Shown here piece by piece: positions 43,131 to 49,212 of a DNA stretch of 64,000 bases; positions within the stretch are counted from its first letter, which is position 1, and every line of letters starts with the position of its first letter. Made by a program: the position numbers and the translations under genes. The notes beneath the pieces are model-generated. The model had not been told where the DNA came from, did not search any database, and saw only the letters and a list, made by a program, of their open reading frames with translations. The DNA is from Curvularia clavata (taxonomy: Eukaryota). The DNA is taken from assembly GCA_023920165.1 (NCBI GenBank), contig CP089281.1, positions 1,178,001-1,242,000 of the forward strand. The letters run 5' to 3'.

Positions 43131-45087
43131 TCAAACATCATACCGGTCCGATTTATGATGCACAGGCGTATAAGTAAAATATTCAAACTCGGCCACCTTT
43201 TCCGTCCCATTCATATCCGACGCCGCGACGCCTACAAACGCGCCTGTAAAACTACCATGTCTGTTCAAAGTCAGTATTCATCTCCCTTGCATACATGTAT
43301 TCGGAAGAGGAAGAAACTTACGCCTGATGCCCTCCACACTCATCACTCAAAATCGACGCATCATACACCGGCCCAATGTTCTTCAATTCCTTCTCTCCCT
43401 CAAGTGCATACTTGAACTGCAGTTCTGGGCCCCGTATACTCAGCGCGAGCCTAACTTTACCCTCTTGTGGAATTTGGACCGGGTCCGGAAACGGCATTCT
43501 GAGATTGCCATCGGGCCAGGAGGCCTCAGAGCTCATGAGGAGCAGTTCGCGTTTACCGTCAGAATGCGCGGTAACGGCTAGATAGAAGAAGTTGAAGCGG
43601 CAGTAGTAAGCTGTTAGTCCGGCAAACGTGCGCTCATCATCTGGAGCGAAATCAACGACGGTTTCGGCGTCGTAGGAGAAGTGTGTTTGACGGCGGGCTA
43701 CGAGGGCTTGTTCGAACCAGGAGCCGACGGACTCGCGGCCGATGAGTTGGAGACCCGTTTTCCCAAAACGGAAGATGCGTTCGGGTTCAGGGGTACGCAG
43801 CCATTGGAAGTCTTTGTGTAGCGTAGTTGTGCTGGTGAAGTCGTAGTGTTGAGGTGACCAGTAGGCGGTGTCGTCGCGCTCGGCGGGTAGGTCGACATAG
43901 AGAGACGGCACAGGTCCGTTTTTTACGTACAGCCAATCGTCTTTGTCCCAGTAGGCTTCTTGAATAGCGCTCTCGCGGCCCAACACGCAGCGCCGTGCCT
44001 GGGTCGTCGGCCGCCCAGTCAGATGCACCACGTATGTCTTGCCATCGGGCGTGTCGACAATATCTCCGTGACCTGCTCGCTGTAGTGCAGCCAGGGGCGC
44101 ATCTTTAGACGTAATGATGTACTTCTGCGGATGCAGTTCGTATGGACCCCAGATATCGCGCGATCGAGCAAACGTACACGCATGACCATATGCGGTGCCG
44201 CCTTCAGCAGTCAAAAGGTAGTACCAACCGTTTCTCTTGTACAAATGCGGTCCTTCAACGAGACCGAGTTCCGAACCGGGGAAGATTGTTTTCCGCGGTC
44301 CAACGAGTTTCTCTGTCTTCTCGTCCCATTGCTGCATTCTGATGCCCTGAACATGTAATGTCAGCATGCTCACTCATAAAACTCCACGGGTTTGAAAATA
44401 CTGACAGAGAAGTACTGCGGTCGCCTCCGATGATCCTGAAGCATATTGATAAACCACTTCTTCCCGTCATCATCGTGAAACAAAGACGGATCGAACCCCG
44501 ACGAATTAACATAGATAGGGTCAGACCACGGGCCCTCGATCTTATCCGCATGAACAATGTAGTTTGGGTTATCTTTGAACGAGCCGTCCTTGCGCTTGAC
44601 ATCGGTGTATACGAGCCAGAACTTTTTGCCGTCGTGGGTCAGACAGGGTGCCCAGACACCTTTTGCAGAAAGTGTTATGTCAAGATTCAGTTAAAGTTTA
44701 GCAGAGAAACATACCGCAGCTATCTGGGTCTCCACGCATATCCAACTGGCTCTTCCTTGTCAGCGGACGCGTGACAAGGTCCCAGTTGGCCAGATCCTTG
44801 GAGTGGTGAATTTGTACGCCAGGAAACCATTCAAACGTCGATGTGGCAATGTAGTACTAGGAACAGCAGGAGTTGTATTAGTTGATGCCTCGGTTGAAAT
44901 TGACTTTTTTGTCGAGTTGTGTTACTCACTGCCTCATCTCGTTAGCTTGCCATTCTTCTCTTGGAATTGACCCAAAATAAAACAATTATAAAAACAGAAA
45001 AGATGTAGACATACCATCATCTCCCACCCTCAACACGGAAGGATCCGCATTGAACCCCGGCAGAATCGGATTCCTAACCAACGGCAT
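43131..45087 (-). CDS. Intracellular GH43 beta-xylosidase/arabinofuranosidase (XynB-like); first intervening sequence is a stwintron
   Basis: [67 protein letters not shown] and C-terminal [10 protein letters not shown]; no signal peptide. Confidence 0.92.
44857..45015 (-). other. [D1,2] spliceosomal twin intron: internal 45014-44929 (86 nt); external 45015 + 44928-44857 (73 nt)
   Basis: Minus strand reads GATGAT|G|GTATGT..GCTAAC..CAG|TGAGT..ACTAAT..TAG|TACTAC; only two-step excision gives in-frame DD-YYIATS. Confidence 0.88.
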
Positions 45088-45907: not shown

Positions 45908-47846
45908 TCAGACACTTGAGATACCTTGGTTATTTTCCTCGGCTTCCTCCGATTCCTGATGAGCAGCAGATGCGTTGTTTGATGTCTGGTCGGGGTTGGG
46001 TGTAGCAACGACGCCAGCAGGCAAAGAAAAGCCCTCTCCTTCATCGGTATCCAGTTGCATTAGGAAGGTCTCCCAGATTTCGATAAGCTAGCGCAACCGT
46101 TAGCAAAGTCTAGAAGGTTAAGGTAACGTCAAACCTACCTCCTTCTGTGCTTCTACAGCACTCTCCAGGAACGTCTCCACCCCTGATTTGAAGTCTTCCA
46201 CCTTTTCTCGTTCAAAGCGTTCAAGCTCGCTACGCATAAGACGACCCATGTCATCGAAGAGCAGTCTAGCCTGATGCACCTTGCGTTCGGCATCGGCAAC
46301 GTCTGCGCTGAGTTGGTTCAGACGATCCTGCTGTGATCTGCCTTGCCTCAGAAGCTTATCCTGAGTCGCCTTTCGCTTCTGCAGCTCTTGCTCGGCGGAA
46401 TGCCAAGAGTGGTAGGCCTTTTGTCGCTGCTGGAACGCGGTCTTTACGGAGCCGATCAACCGTATGTACTCGTCAATCACAATGCCCATAGTGAGAACGT
46501 CCTGCTGGGCCTGGCGTTCGTAGAGTTCACGGATGCGGATTTGGATGTCGGAGAGGCTGTCGAGGGGACCGGATAGGGCAGGCGACAACTCCACAGCAGA
46601 CAAAGAATGCAGAGAAGCTGAAAAGTCACCACAAGCTTCAGCTAAACCCTTTCGCTGAGATACAACGGTGTCAGTCGCCTTGAGAAGAGCCTTGAGCTGT
46701 GCTTCAAGCGCATCGAGATAGATTCTTCGGTCGTGGAACCACTACAACGACTGTCAGTATAGAAGTAAGAAAACATAGACTAGCAACGTACATCGTCATG
46801 CTCGATGAACTTGCCGGTACTGCTACCAAGCATGGAGCCAAACATGCCCTTGCTCTCGCCCAGGCCGGGATCTTTGCGTTCCTTGTTCTTGATGTCCATG
46901 TTGAAAGCCTCGCTTTCGAGGAACAGCTTCAAGTCGCTGTCATGCTGCAGTACAGGATGAGCCGCTGACTTGTTGAGCATGCGCTCCAGGGCGGCGCGCC
47001 GAGATTCGACAAAGTCGGCATCGAAGCGACCAACAGCCTGTTTTTCTGGAGGCGGGGGGATGATGACACCAGGGTTATTGTTGTGCAGCTGGTTGTACAG
47101 CCAGAGGAAGTCGCGGTAGCGGCGCGAGACTGTGAATTCCGGATTGCGGTAGCCCTTGGAGGTCGTCTTGGTCGTGACCGAGTACTCAGTGTGGGAGCTG
47201 GTCAGGTCGCCAACCTTGTGGGGGTCGCCTACGGAGATTGAAAAGGATGGCTTCGCCGCCTGCTCGACGCTGACGCTTGGTTGTGTCTGGCGCTGGGGCA
47301 CGGGGTGGGAGGGAGCCTGGACGGGAGGAGGTATCCTCGCCCCTTGGGAGGCCCGCAGCTGCTCGTCATCATTGTCGTCTAGATCAACCGAGTCCATCAT
47401 GCCGCGCAACGAGGAGGCCGAAGAAGCACCCGCTGCTGGCCGGGCACCGCGCGATGCCGCAGCCGCCGCCTCCTTCTGGGGAGGCGCTGGGGCAGTTATC
47501 TCGGGGCCTAGTTCTGGGGTAGATGCTCCCAGTGGGCCCAGAGGATCCTCGACGGCCTCGAGCTTGGTCGACTGAACACCATGGGGTCGCCGTCGGGGGC
47601 CGCGGCCTGCCGGAGATCGAGGCGCGGAGGCAGCAGAGGGAGTAGCATCGGCGGTAAGCTTGTTTGTGGGTGCGGATGAGTCTGTGTCGGGGGCATCATC
47701 GTGGCCCAGCTGCTTCGAGGCACCCGGCGCAGGGCTCGATTGTGAGGGCACATCTGCAAGGCATGTCAGTCTGGCGCGGAGTAGCAAGCGGGAGAGAGTT
47801 GGCATTTACCGCCCCATGGAGAGCTTTCTGCGTCGCCCAGATCCAT
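45908..47846 (-). CDS. VPS5: Sorting nexin Vps5 (PX-BAR, retromer); 4 exons
   Basis: PX motifs VGDPHKVGDLTSSH, VSRRYRDFLWL and PPPPEKQAVGRF; BAR end FKSGVETFLESAVEAQKELIEIWETF. Confidence 0.93.
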
Positions 47847-48110
47847 TGGCGCAGTCGAGAGATGTAAGGGAGGGGGGGTTGTGAGTTTGTCGTTGTTAGC
47901 AGTCGTTGGAGCATGTCGCATTCGGCTACCTATGACATACAGGTTCCACTAGCCGCCAATGGCCCGACCTTACCCTAGCTGTCTGCTACGGAATCTACAC
48001 ATCTCCATGTACATTTACTCGACATCTTCTTATTCATCCGAACACAATTACTCATCTACAGAATATGTATCCGCCTTTGGGCCTAATTACAGTACCGCCC
48101 AACCGTCCTC

Positions 48111-48936
48111 TCACATACTGGGTCCGCCCAGACTCGCCTTGCCATGCTCACAAGTATAGCACACCTTCCCATCCATCGAGCCCAGCCTCATCATCCCCAT
48201 CGTCAGTCCCATGCGCTGACCCAGATGCACAACCCAGCTTTCCACAAAGATAGTGGAACCTATCGGCGCTGGTCTCAAATACGTGCAGTTGACTTTGGAC
48301 GCACCAACAGTTAGCAACATTCTCTGACCTGACTCGGAAAAGCCAACACTTGATATCAAACTTGCAGACGCAAAAGGCGATCGGCACTTACTACCAATGC
48401 ATTAGTAAGACTCATAATCCTGTGCTCATTCACAAACCTACCGATTCCTTGAAACATGCCCCGTATCCCAGAACCCCTCGCGGATACACGGGGAAATAGT
48501 CAACGAGGTGACGAGATCAAATATCATGGCCACCGCGCCACCATGCAGCGTCGCATTCATATTGCACAGTTCTTCCGGCACCACGAAGCTAAACACTGTG
48601 CGGCAATCATGCGGATTGCCCTTTGAAGGATTGTACGTGACCGACTCGAGTTTGAGAATCTTGCACAAGATGGCGTCGTGGCCCTAAAAACACACAACAC
48701 GCCAGCTATTAGAGTTTGTTGAAATGTCGCATAGAAGAGGGCAGACATGCTTGGTATTCCAGTGACGACATCATATTAAACTGTTATTTGGCACACGAGA
48801 GGGGCACATGTCAGCAGGGTTTCATGGGCGTGCGTAGAGACATAGTGGTACCAACCCAGTGCGCGACTTTATCGTACGGAGAATCGGATAGGTTGTAGAT
48901 CAACTTGGGTGCTTTCTTTTCCTCTGAATCACTCAT
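48111..48936 (-). CDS. PaaI/hotdog-fold acyl-CoA thioesterase (ACOT13-like); exons 48936-48856, 48780-48751, 48683-48443, 48292-48111
   Basis: LCNMNATLHGGAVAMIFD and spliced GHVSRNLNCTYLRPAP; the model needs a GTTGGT intron, a GC-AG intron and a stwintron. Confidence 0.85.
48293..48442 (-). other. [D1,2] spliceosomal twin intron: internal 48441-48391 (51 nt); external 48442 + 48390-48293 (99 nt)
   Basis: Minus strand reads AATC|G|GTAGGT..ACTAAT..TAG|TAAGT..GCTAAC..AAG|TCAACTGC; internal excision recreates a perfect GTAAGT donor and gives N-L-N-C-T-Y-L-R-P. Confidence 0.88.
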
Positions 48937-49212
48937 CTTGGGCAACAAATAAATCCTGTAATATTCTAGAGAAACAATAAGAATGAACGAGTTTTGTAAC
49001 GCGTATAAGCAGTAGGCGGCGTGGCCTGGGGGCGAGTCGCATACCATATAGTCGTGACGGACCTCGGCATGGGGTAGTGGCTAGCGACGTAACGCTAAAC
49101 CCAATTCACCCCCTCCATCAGAAATTCCAAAGATACTAGCATCTCAACCCAACTTTCAATTCAACCTCCGCATTTCCCATAAAACGCACCCTCATACAAG
49201 TGCACGTTCAAA

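What the first reader, a model, noticed from the sequence alone, without database searches (positions are those of the whole stretch)
48293..48442. Second independent [D1,2] stwintron in the PaaI thioesterase gene
Seen on the minus strand: ..TCA AGG AAT C (48443), G (48442), a 51-nt internal intron GTAGGT..ACTAAT..TAG (48441-48391), then TAAGT..GCTAAC..AAG (48390-48293), then TC AAC TGC ACG TAT TTG AGA CCA. Internal excision creates the consensus donor GTAAGT. Double excision yields VSRNLNCTYLRP, matching the hotdog-thioesterase VS..L...YLRP strand. One-step splicing gives AAT CGT CAA CTG, which is out of frame. The two branch-point/acceptor sets sit exactly where the model requires them.
Basis: partly seen in the sequence, partly recalled or inferred. 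Interest (0 to 1): 0.88.

Follow-up and report, generated by a model that had tools for sequence, protein, structure and literature searches.

The report
Two-step nested intron in thioesterase gene
A fungal thioesterase gene is interrupted by 150 bases that look like one intron nested in the start signal of another; transcripts show exactly these bases removed, and related fungi share this known but rare design, which often breaks their public gene models.

Summary
On the minus strand, 48442-48293 (150 nt) begins GG and ends AG. It consists of G, a 51-nt intron with full signals (48441-48391), and then TAAGT..GCTAAC..AAG.

RNA contigs from 4 of 4 runs (4 studies) join 48443 directly to 48292, with no ambiguity in the joint. 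It gives SRN-L-NCTYLRP, which at least 100 of 123 database orthologues show as one uninterrupted stretch.

Four further distinct orthologous loci from metagenomes carry the same [D1,2] layout at the same codon: two are Alternaria-like, one Parastagonospora-like and one unplaced. Their lengths and intron interiors differ. Shuffled interiors reproduce the nested signals in only 4-16 of 5000 trials.

Sixteen public gene models break at exactly this junction; 14 of them are from Pleosporaceae or Phaeosphaeriaceae.

Not shown: the splicing intermediate. Only contigs were available, so the two-step order is inferred.

This is a new member of a known kind, the [D1,2] stwintrons of Flipphi, Fekete and co-workers. 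It is not a new mechanism. The scan has noted stwintrons before on other DNA (50 findings), but none in this gene.

"Second" refers to another [D1,2] candidate 3.3 kb away in a GH43 gene. "PaaI" is a loose name: the protein is a TIGR00369-type hotdog thioesterase.

The parts
48442..48442 (-). G that is the first nucleotide of the external intron's donor, and the first of the two Gs that open the intervening sequence
   Evidence: Sequence. The RNA joint 48443|48292 leaves this G out of the mRNA. It is invariant in 5 of 5 orthologues.
48391..48441 (-). Internal intron, 51 nt: donor GTAGGT (48441-48436), branch element ACTAAT (48406-48401), acceptor TAG (48393-48391)
   Evidence: The same element, 47-52 nt long with the branch A 10-11 nt from a YAG, is present in L001, L008, L012 and L013. 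The strain variant at 48415 lies outside the signals.
48293..48390 (-). Remainder of the external intron, 98 nt (99 nt with G 48442): TAAGT (48390-48386) completes the donor GTAAGT after the first excision; branch element GCTAAC (48315-48310); acceptor AAG (48295-48293)
   Evidence: T[AG]AGT directly follows the internal acceptor in 5 of 5 orthologues. The one-base insertion after 48337 in the strain of X1 and X2 lies outside the signals.
48443..48683 (-). Exon 3 (GHDAIL...GHVSRN plus the first base of the Leu codon)
   Evidence: Translation. RNA contig pieces cover 48443-48682. 78-79% identity to Bipolaris proteins.
48111..48292 (-). Exon 4 (last two bases of the Leu codon, NCTYLRP...GGPSM, stop)
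   Evidence: Translation. Pfam 4HBT PF03061, 24.6 bits against a cut-off of 20.6. RNA contig pieces reach 48292.
48684..48750 (-). Intron 2, 67 nt, single-step, read as GC-AG (donor GCATGT)
   Evidence: The RNA joint skips 67 nt with 'both' = 1 in X1, X2 and X9. Sequence.
48751..48780 (-). Exon 2 (FNMMSSLEYQ)
   Evidence: RNA contig pieces cover 48750-48780. Sequence.
48781..48855 (-). Intron 1, 75 nt, ordinary GT-AG
   Evidence: The RNA joint skips 75 nt in X1, X2 and X9.
48856..48936 (-). Coding part of exon 1 (ATG at 48936-48934, 27 codons)
   Evidence: Sequence. RNA contigs cover 48856-49020. The N-terminus aligns with orthologues.

Best explanation
The 150 nt at 48442-48293 (minus strand) are a pure [D1,2] spliceosomal twin intron (stwintron) in the third intron position of a hotdog-fold (4HBT/TIGR00369) thioesterase gene of a Pleosporaceae-like fungus.

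Inferred order of events:
1. The U2-type spliceosome first removes the 51-nt internal intron (GTAGGT..ACTAAT..TAG, 48441-48391).
2. This ligation places G 48442 next to TAAGT (48390-48386) and so creates the donor GTAAGT.
3. A second splicing reaction uses that new donor with GCTAAC and AAG to remove the 99-nt external intron.
4. C 48443 is thereby joined to TC 48292-48291, completing a conserved Leu codon: ..GHVSRN-L-NCTYLRP.., the strand after the central helix of the hotdog fold.

Shown: the mature junction, the sequence of the unspliced form, the nested signals, their conservation and their improbability by chance.

Inferred: that removal happens in two reactions, and in this order.

The layout appears to be inherited within Pleosporineae (Pleosporaceae and Phaeosphaeriaceae).
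For: 1. RNA. Contigs of 4 of 4 runs from 4 studies carry the joint 48292|48443. Two runs are on record as metatranscriptomes; the RNA label of the other two is the tool's guess. The joint skips 150 nt that are GG..AG on the gene strand, with 'both' = 0. One X9 contig of 632 nt spans all three joints of the gene.

2. No single GT-AG or GC-AG intron gives that junction. The GT..AG excision 48441-48293 shifts the frame.

3. Both nested introns have complete fungal-type donor, branch and acceptor elements at usual distances.

4. Conservation. Of 14 metagenome loci encoding relatives, 6 carry an intervening sequence at the same codon. These are 4 distinct sequences, because L001, L002 and L003 are identical in the stretch printed. 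All 4 have the same design: C or T | G | internal intron of 47-52 nt | T[AG]AGT.. external intron of 59-103 nt ..[AC]AG | T-N-AAC. In 5 of 5 (window included) the mature reading is SR[NT]LN[CT][TV]YLRP and the one-step reading is frameshifted. The invariant intron columns are GGTA-G, CTAA and AGT-AGT plus the final AG, while the interiors are diverged or unalignable.

5. Chance. 4-16 of 5000 dinucleotide shuffles of each interior recreate the nested signals.

6. Orthologue proteins. At least 100 of 123 read G-x-[VIL]-[ST]-[RK]-x-L..YLRP without interruption, by my regular expression. Sixteen break at exactly this point. Their tails are what partial or one-step removal of such a stwintron predicts. 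For example, the tail of A. alternata P0103 (TRKCNLVDSVGVPMT) is, by my codon-by-codon reading of the L001 sequence printed, L001 with only the internal intron removed.

7. Strain variants in X1 and X2 avoid all six signals. One is a 1-nt insertion, which rules out a coding role for the external part.

8. The mechanism is established for other [D1,2] stwintrons, where RT-PCR showed intermediates. An example is lipS of Aspergillus, with a 52-nt internal intron inside a 57-nt external one, also in phase 1 (PMC5639578, passages seen).
Against: No contig shows the intermediate joint 48442|48390. It does leave the two-step order undemonstrated here.

The RNA label of X1 and X2 is the tool's guess.

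Table 5b (the joined form in DNA runs) was not available, so a processed DNA copy is not formally excluded.

GG-AG introns are listed as a rare class in one fungal annotation (20 introns, 0.0217% of the splice sites tabulated, in Ganoderma lingzhi; PMC11590231, Table 1 passage). A one-step reading therefore has been entertained by others, though that paper did not test for nested introns.

The conservation comes from 5 sequences of one suborder and is not phylogenetically independent.
Confidence: 0.88

Rival explanations
1. The 150 nt are removed in one reaction as a non-canonical GG-AG intron. On this reading the nested signals are incidental.
For: The mature junction alone cannot distinguish one step from two. 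GG-AG is tabulated as a rare splice-site type in a transcript-corrected fungal annotation (PMC11590231, passage).
Against: One-step removal does not need an internal branch element, a YAG, or a T[AG]AGT right behind it. Yet these are invariant in 5 of 5 orthologues whose intron interiors have otherwise diverged, and they arise in only 0.08-0.32% of shuffles. Apart from the reconstructed GTAAGT, the good donor match here (GTAGGT) starts one base after the exon end that the mRNA requires. Verified [D1,2] stwintrons have the same look (PMC5639578).
Confidence: 0.06
2. Only the 51-nt intron is spliced and the following 99 nt are coding. In the window this is in frame and would add 33 residues (RKCRSPF...GASKV) in place of the Leu. 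Alternatively, the gene uses donor 48441 with the downstream acceptor TTGAG|A, giving the in-frame deletion seen in the B. oryzae model.
For: The frame is open in the window. Pfam 4HBT scores slightly higher on the extended piece (27.9 against 24.6 bits). Public models use such readings: P0004 for B. sorokiniana and P0005 for B. oryzae.
Against: No such joint appears in any of the 4 runs, and all show 48443|48292. The strain of X1 and X2 has a 1-nt insertion in this stretch. The residual lengths in the orthologues are 59, 103, 71 and 88 nt, none divisible by three. At least 100 of 123 orthologue proteins have a single residue here.
Confidence: 0.03
3. It is an assembly or sequencing error (a 1-nt indel at the donor) or a decaying pseudogene, and the intron is really an ordinary GT-AG intron.
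For: A single extra G would turn an ordinary phase-1 intron into this picture.
Against: Independent unspliced contigs from X1 and X2 reproduce 48263-48472, including both Gs. Four other distinct orthologues have the same two Gs. The gene is transcribed and spliced to an intact 177-codon frame.
Confidence: 0.01

Closest known systems
[quoted passage not shown] 2017, PMC5639578; passages read)
   Same: Both have a donor split between nucleotides 1 and 2 and begin GG. The internal introns are of similar size (52-53 nt there, 51 nt here) and sit inside a short external intron. Both split a codon in phase 1. Both are conserved well above species level.
   Different: The gene and lineage differ: here a hotdog thioesterase in Pleosporineae. 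According to that paper, lipS lacks the stwintron in all Dothideomycetes. The lipS intermediates were shown by RT-PCR; here they were not.
Alternatively spliced [D1,2]/[A2,3] stwintrons: alternative oxidase of Helminthosporium solani (Ag et al. 2015, seen only as cited in PMC5639578) and the DHA1 efflux-pump gene (Fekete et al. 2017, PMC5587772, abstract start)
   Same: These are also nested U2 introns that start GG. H. solani is, from my recall, also a Pleosporales fungus, so the class would already be on record in the order.
   Different: Those can be resolved by two routes because the downstream exon starts with G (PMC5639578 Background). Here the downstream exon starts with T in 5 of 5 orthologues. 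Only the [D1,2] route can give the observed mRNA.
Sequence-similar 'sister' [D1,2] stwintrons of Hypoxylaceae and Xylariaceae (PMC9024468, PMC8469720, PMC12403724; abstract starts, passages)
   Same: The split type is the same ([D1,2]). Those papers also describe 'uniquely occurring' stwintrons that have no sequence-similar copies.
   Different: No second copy was found in the 64-kb window, and there is no similarity to the GH43 candidate. The fold is no better than shuffled sequence: z = +1.0, and 176 of 200 shuffles fold at least as well. This one is shared across families rather than specific to one species.
Recursive splicing at ratchet points in long animal introns (recalled, no call)
   Same: An intron is removed stepwise, and a 5' splice site is regenerated at the ligation junction.
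   Different: In recursive splicing the regenerated donor starts right after the exon. Here it takes the last ligated base (G 48442) as its first base, so the final exon end lies one base upstream of the first cut.

Membership tests
[D1,2] stwintron | The intervening sequence removed from the mRNA begins with two successive Gs and ends AG | tested here: met
   The joint 48292|48443 skips 150 nt that read GG..AG on the gene strand, with 'both' = 0, in 4 of 4 runs. The definition is from PMC5639578 Background.
[D1,2] stwintron | An internal U2 intron with its own donor, branch element and acceptor starts at the second nucleotide | tested here: met
   GTAGGT, then ACTAAT with its branch A 11 nt from the end, then TAG: 48441-48391. 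It is conserved in 5 of 5 orthologues.
[D1,2] stwintron | Removing the internal intron reconstitutes a canonical donor for the external intron, which has its own branch element and acceptor | tested here: met
   G 48442 plus TAAGT gives GTAAGT, followed by GCTAAC with its branch A 18 nt from the end, then AAG. GTAAGT or GTGAGT is reconstituted in 5 of 5 orthologues.
[D1,2] stwintron | One-step excision as a canonical intron does not give the functional mRNA | tested here: met
   One-step GT..AG excision is frameshifted in 5 of 5. No such joint appears in any run.
[D1,2] stwintron | A splicing intermediate exists that lacks only the internal intron | not testable with these tools
   Only Logan contigs were served, and no raw reads. 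No contig with a 48442|48390 joint is listed, which the tool says is not evidence of absence.
[D1,2]/[A2,3] alternatively spliced stwintron | [quoted passage not shown] | tested here: not met
   The downstream exon starts with T in the window and in L001, L008, L012 and L013. The criterion is from PMC5639578.
Sister (repeated) stwintrons of Xylariales | Sequence-similar copies at other gene positions, and terminal symmetry or pairing | tested here: not met
   blastn of the 150 nt against the window gives only the self hit and matches of up to 18 nt with E of 1.7 or higher. The fold z-score is +1.0. The whole genome could not be searched.
PaaI thioesterase (NCBIfam TIGR02286 equivalog) | Score above the equivalog cut-off | tested here: not met
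   Orthologue P0009 scores 22.3 bits against a cut-off of 118.9.
Hotdog-fold thioesterase, 4HBT / TIGR00369 domain group | Score above the curated cut-offs | tested here: met
   PF03061 scores 24.6 bits (exon 4) and 27.9 bits against 20.6. TIGR00369 scores 47.2 against 36.6 on orthologue P0009.

The most novel reading that the evidence does not exclude
The thioesterase stwintron may be one survivor of an old wave of [D1,2] stwintron gain in Pleosporineae, comparable to the ongoing propagation described in Xylariales but with the sequence similarity long since eroded.

Three hints point this way:
- A second, unrelated [D1,2] candidate lies 3.3 kb away in the GH43 gene.
- In one relative (L009) the same thioesterase gene carries a [D1,2]/[A2,3]-type nested intron at a different site 18 nt upstream. 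A Didymellaceae-like relative (L007) has a plain intron at that site, and it aligns with the 5' half of the L009 element.
- Other relatives have neither.

If this holds, the gene would be a natural series for studying how stwintrons are born and lost.
Probability: 0.2. Interest if true: 0.6.

Novelty: new member of a known kind. Interest (0 to 1): 0.42.

Why it matters
1. Annotation. Sixteen of 123 database models of this thioesterase are truncated, frameshifted or carry an indel at this junction, among them Bipolaris, Alternaria and Parastagonospora. They lose the conserved ..LNCTYLRP.. strand or everything after it. Gene finders that allow only GT/GC-AG introns will keep failing here.

2. 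Apparent GG-AG 'non-canonical introns' in transcript-corrected fungal annotations (for example PMC11590231) may partly be hidden stwintrons. This locus is a clean, transcript-backed example.

3. The gene shows four states across relatives: a stwintron at this site, a nested intron 18 nt upstream, a plain intron there, or no intron. It could therefore serve to study the gain and loss of complex introns outside Xylariales and Eurotiales.

It does not reveal a new mechanism.

Tried and rejected
- The whole-genome search of the window's own assembly failed because no genome is held. The number of stwintrons in the genome could not be counted.

- Earlier findings of the scan: none near this place, none by sequence and none for stwintron plus thioesterase.

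- Literature. 12 papers hold 'stwintron', and 0 hold both 'stwintron' and 'thioesterase'. A broad search with Pleosporales genus names listed 20 papers, none holding 'stwintron', and was of no use. 'Thioesterase' occurs 0 times in PMC5639578 and PMC9024468. Flipphi et al. 2013 and Ag et al. 2015 are outside the searched library and were not seen. Supplementary tables of the Hypoxylaceae papers were not opened, so a thioesterase entry there cannot be excluded.

- No contig with the intermediate joint 48442|48390 or the 149-nt one-step joint is listed. With contigs this is not evidence of absence.

- Unspliced contigs across the stwintron exist in X1 (depth 28.6, against 30.9 for the joint contig) and X2 (22.6 against 77.2). 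No run covers intron 2. This might mean slow removal, but contig depths cannot rank forms, so I make no claim.

- RNA secondary structure of the 150 nt: z = +1.0, nothing beyond chance.

- Repeats: there is no other copy in the window.

- The [A2,3] alternative route is rejected because the downstream exon starts with T.

- The in-frame 33-residue insertion, the B. oryzae-type deletion and a sequencing error are rejected (see the rival explanations).

- The fused Dothidotthia model P0017 was inspected for the GH43 junction, but it lacks that N-terminus.

- Among the 14 metagenome loci, none has a plain intron at this position. The ancestral state of the site therefore stays open.

Full report
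**The sequence**

On the minus strand the window encodes a four-exon gene that runs from the ATG at 48936-48934 to the stop at 48113-48111. Exon 3 (48683-48443) translates to GHDAIL...GHVSRN plus one extra base, C 48443. Exon 4 begins at 48292 with TC and continues NCTYLRP...GGPSM.

- G at 48442.
- A 51-nt unit: GTAGGT..ACTAAT..TAG (48441-48391).
- TAAGT (48390-48386), GCTAAC (48315-48310) and AAG ending at 48293.

I considered the other ways to read this stretch.
- One-step GT..AG removal (48441-48293) shifts the frame.
- Removing only the 51-nt unit happens to stay in frame in this window and would insert 33 residues.
- Using donor 48441 with the downstream TTGAG| acceptor gives an in-frame deletion of NCTYLR.

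**What the gene is**

Exon 4 matches Pfam 4HBT (PF03061, 24.6 bits against a cut-off of 20.6). The nearest proteins are Pleosporales thioesterase-domain proteins, with Bipolaris at 78-79% identity over exon 3.

The full-length orthologue P0009 passes NCBIfam TIGR00369 (hotdog-fold thioesterase, 47.2 against 36.6). It is far below the PaaI equivalog (22.3 against 118.9). "PaaI-like hotdog thioesterase" is therefore the accurate label.

The parts I assign add up to 177 codons, the same length as P0009.

**Transcripts**

Runs holding the stretch were found. I laid four of the 24 listed, taken from four different studies: X1 and X2 (the RNA label is the tool's guess) and X9 and X10 (on record as metatranscriptomes).

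- All four carry a contig that joins 48292 to 48443. It skips 150 nt whose ends are CT..CC on the + strand, which is GG..AG on the gene strand. 'both' = 0, so the cut cannot be shifted.
- One X9 contig of 632 nt runs through all three joints of the gene with two mismatches.
- The other two joints are a 75-nt GT-AG intron (48855-48781) and a 67-nt intron with 'both' = 1, which reads as GC-AG (48750-48684).
- X1 and X2 also hold an unspliced contig over 48263-48472. It confirms both Gs at 48442-48441 and differs only by T>C at 48415 and one inserted base after 48337. Both differences lie outside the six splice signals. The insertion breaks the in-frame-retention reading in that strain.
- No contig with the intermediate joint (48442|48390) is listed. 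With contigs, that says nothing either way.

**Proteins of relatives**

In an alignment of 11 database relatives with the two window exons, GHVSRN and NCTYLRP are separated by exactly one column. Every gene model that is intact at this junction has Leu there, and C + TC = CTC encodes Leu.

A profile search gave 120 listed relatives out of 489 hits. Together, that makes 123 database proteins.
- By my regular expression, 100 carry the uninterrupted motif G-x-[VIL]-[ST]-[RK]-x-L..YLRP.
- Five more are uninterrupted but have a variant residue before the motif: P0069, P0082, P0087, P0090 and P0112.
- Sixteen break at the junction: P0004, P0005, P0006, P0007, P0010, P0011, P0015, P0059, P0073, P0074, P0089, P0091, P0100, P0103, P0122 and P0124.
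- P0050 has no hit in this region, and P0099 stops a few residues earlier.

The named broken models are:
- Bipolaris (three), Alternaria (three) and Decorospora. I looked up only Decorospora, which is Pleosporaceae; I recall the same family for Bipolaris and Alternaria.
- Paraphoma, Ampelomyces, Ophiobolus and Setomelanomma, all Phaeosphaeriaceae.
- Parastagonospora (two models) and one entry labelled Phaeosphaeriaceae sp. I recall Phaeosphaeriaceae for Parastagonospora.
- One partial Westerdykella model that simply ends at GHVSR (Sporormiaceae).

Their tails are what partial processing of such an element predicts:
- R-K-C.. or C-K-C.. corresponds to removal of the internal intron only, followed by reading on into TAAGTGC...
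- R-Q-L-H.. or C-E-L-H.. corresponds to the one-step frameshift.
- A stop right after N-R corresponds to no splicing.

**Genomic DNA of relatives**

One scan of the metagenome contigs with an alignment of five intact orthologues returned 14 loci.

Six loci have an intervening sequence at the same codon.
- L001, L002 and L003 are identical in the stretch printed, and their exon 3 is 100% identical to the A. alternata protein.
- L008 is Alternaria-like.
- L012 is 98% identical to Parastagonospora in exon 4.
- L013 is unplaced.

All four distinct sequences have the same architecture as the window.
- The exon ends in C or T, followed by G.
- Next comes an internal intron of 47-52 nt, with a GT-type donor, a CTAA[CT] branch element 10-11 nt from its end and a CAG acceptor.
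- T[AG]AGT follows directly behind it.
- The external part has a branch-type element (TGAT in L001 and L012), ends in [AC]AG, and gives an external intron of 59-103 nt.
- The next exon begins T-N-AAC.

The total lengths are 150, 111, 155, 122 and 135 nt. The two-step product is SR[NT]LN[CT][TV]YLRP in 5 of 5, and the one-step product is frameshifted in 5 of 5.

In the MAFFT alignment, the invariant intron columns are the signals themselves: GGTA-G, CTAA, AGT-AGT and the final AG.

Dinucleotide shuffles of each interior, with the first 7 and last 25 nt held fixed, recreate a nested donor, branch, acceptor and T[AG]AGT set in 16, 9, 4, 8 and 15 of 5000 trials.

The other eight loci have no intron at this codon.
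- L004 and L005 are Massarineae-like.
- L006 is Didymellaceae-like.
- L010, L011 and L014 are more distant Dothideomycetes.
- L007 and L009 have an intron 18 nt upstream instead.

**Mechanism**

The mRNA requires removal of a GG..AG segment. Apart from the reconstructed GTAAGT, the good donor match (GTAGGT) starts one base too late. A complete short intron sits right there. Its removal builds GTAAGT from the leftover G.

Selection has kept the internal branch element, the internal acceptor and the T[AG]AGT behind it in lineages whose intron interiors no longer align. A one-step GG-AG reaction would need none of those three elements.

This is the definition and the behaviour of a [D1,2] stwintron. 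For several of these the intermediate has been shown by RT-PCR (PMC5639578, passages; definition also in the abstract of PMC12403724).

The downstream exon starts with T in all five sequences. The alternative [A2,3] route described in PMC5639578 is therefore closed, and the element is a pure [D1,2] stwintron.

I put this reading at 0.88. The missing piece is direct observation of the intermediate.

**Comparison and novelty**

Stwintrons have been described since 2013. [D1,2] is the commonest type, and hundreds are catalogued in Xylariales (abstract starts). One is reported in Helminthosporium solani (cited in PMC5639578), which I recall to be a Pleosporales fungus. Deep conservation is known for lipS.

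I found no paper that links a stwintron to a thioesterase. I did not see the 2013 and 2015 papers, nor any supplementary tables.

Unlike the Xylariales 'sister' stwintrons, this one has no similar copy in the window and no terminal pairing beyond chance.

It is therefore a new, well-supported member of a known kind. The scan has flagged stwintrons on other DNA before (50 findings in at least 11 genomes), but none in this gene.

**Side observations**

A regular-expression scan of both strands of the window found one other [D1,2]-shaped element, at 45015-44857 on the minus strand. It lies in a GH43 beta-xylosidase gene.
- Its exon 1 (45087-45016) aligns to residues 5-25 of PDB chain 1yrz_A, and the next exon (from 44856) aligns to residues 26-70. 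The same adjacency holds for 2exh_A (3-24, then 25-70).
- The 159 nt between the exons, which begin GG, must therefore be removed exactly.
I have no transcript evidence for it.

In L009, the thioesterase gene has a 166-nt element that begins GG and is followed by G, located 18 nt upstream of the window's site.
- Its first 56-nt intron aligns with the plain 52-nt intron of L007 at that place.
- A 110-nt second intron follows directly.
- This is a [D1,2]/[A2,3]-type candidate.

Together these observations suggest, but do not show, that nested introns have arisen repeatedly in this fungal suborder.

Noticed in passing
window 44857-45015, minus strand (GH43 beta-xylosidase gene; exon 1 at 45087-45016, next exon from 44856): A second [D1,2] stwintron candidate: G 45015, an 86-nt internal intron (45014-44929, GTATGT..GCTAAC..CAG), then TGAGT..ACTAAT..TAG. 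The flanking exons align to adjacent residues of solved GH43 xylosidases (1yrz_A 5-25 and 26-70), so exactly these 159 nt, which begin GG, must be removed. One-step GT..AG removal would shift the frame. It has no sequence similarity to the thioesterase element. No transcript data were examined.
   Followed up: partly
L009:1888-2053 (metagenome orthologue of the thioesterase gene): A nested-intron candidate lies at a different site, 18 nt upstream of the window's (between ..FWDT and GHVSR). It consists of G, a 56-nt intron (GTATGT..GCTGAC..TAG), then TAAGT..ATTAAC..AAAG, followed by G, so both the [D1,2] and the [A2,3] route would work. There is no intron at the window's site in this locus.
   Followed up: partly
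L007:1937-1988 (Didymellaceae-like orthologue): A plain 52-nt GT-AG intron sits at that upstream site. It aligns with the 5' intron of the L009 element, as if L009 had gained a second intron next to an existing one. Database models P0016 and P0099 fail at this upstream site, and P0046 lacks the exon sequence before it.
   Followed up: partly
window 48684-48750, minus strand: Intron 2 of the thioesterase gene is a GC-AG intron (donor GCATGT, 67 nt), supported by RNA joints in 3 of 4 runs. The Alternaria-like L001 also appears to have a GC donor (GCAGGT) at the same place, whereas L004, L007 and L013 have GT.
   Followed up: partly
window 46780-48936, minus strand, and database models P0006, P0010, P0017: The thioesterase gene, a PX/Vps5-type sorting-nexin gene and the GH43 gene lie head to tail. 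Three public models fuse two or all three of them into single proteins of 792-1038 residues. This may be a knock-on effect of the unpredictable introns.
   Followed up: no
PMC11590231, Table 1 (Ganoderma lingzhi annotation): Transcript-corrected annotation lists 20 GG-AG and 38 GT-GG introns as 'non-canonical splice sites'. These are the apparent boundaries that [D1,2] and [A2,3] stwintrons would produce. That paper did not consider nested introns in the passages I saw.
   Followed up: no
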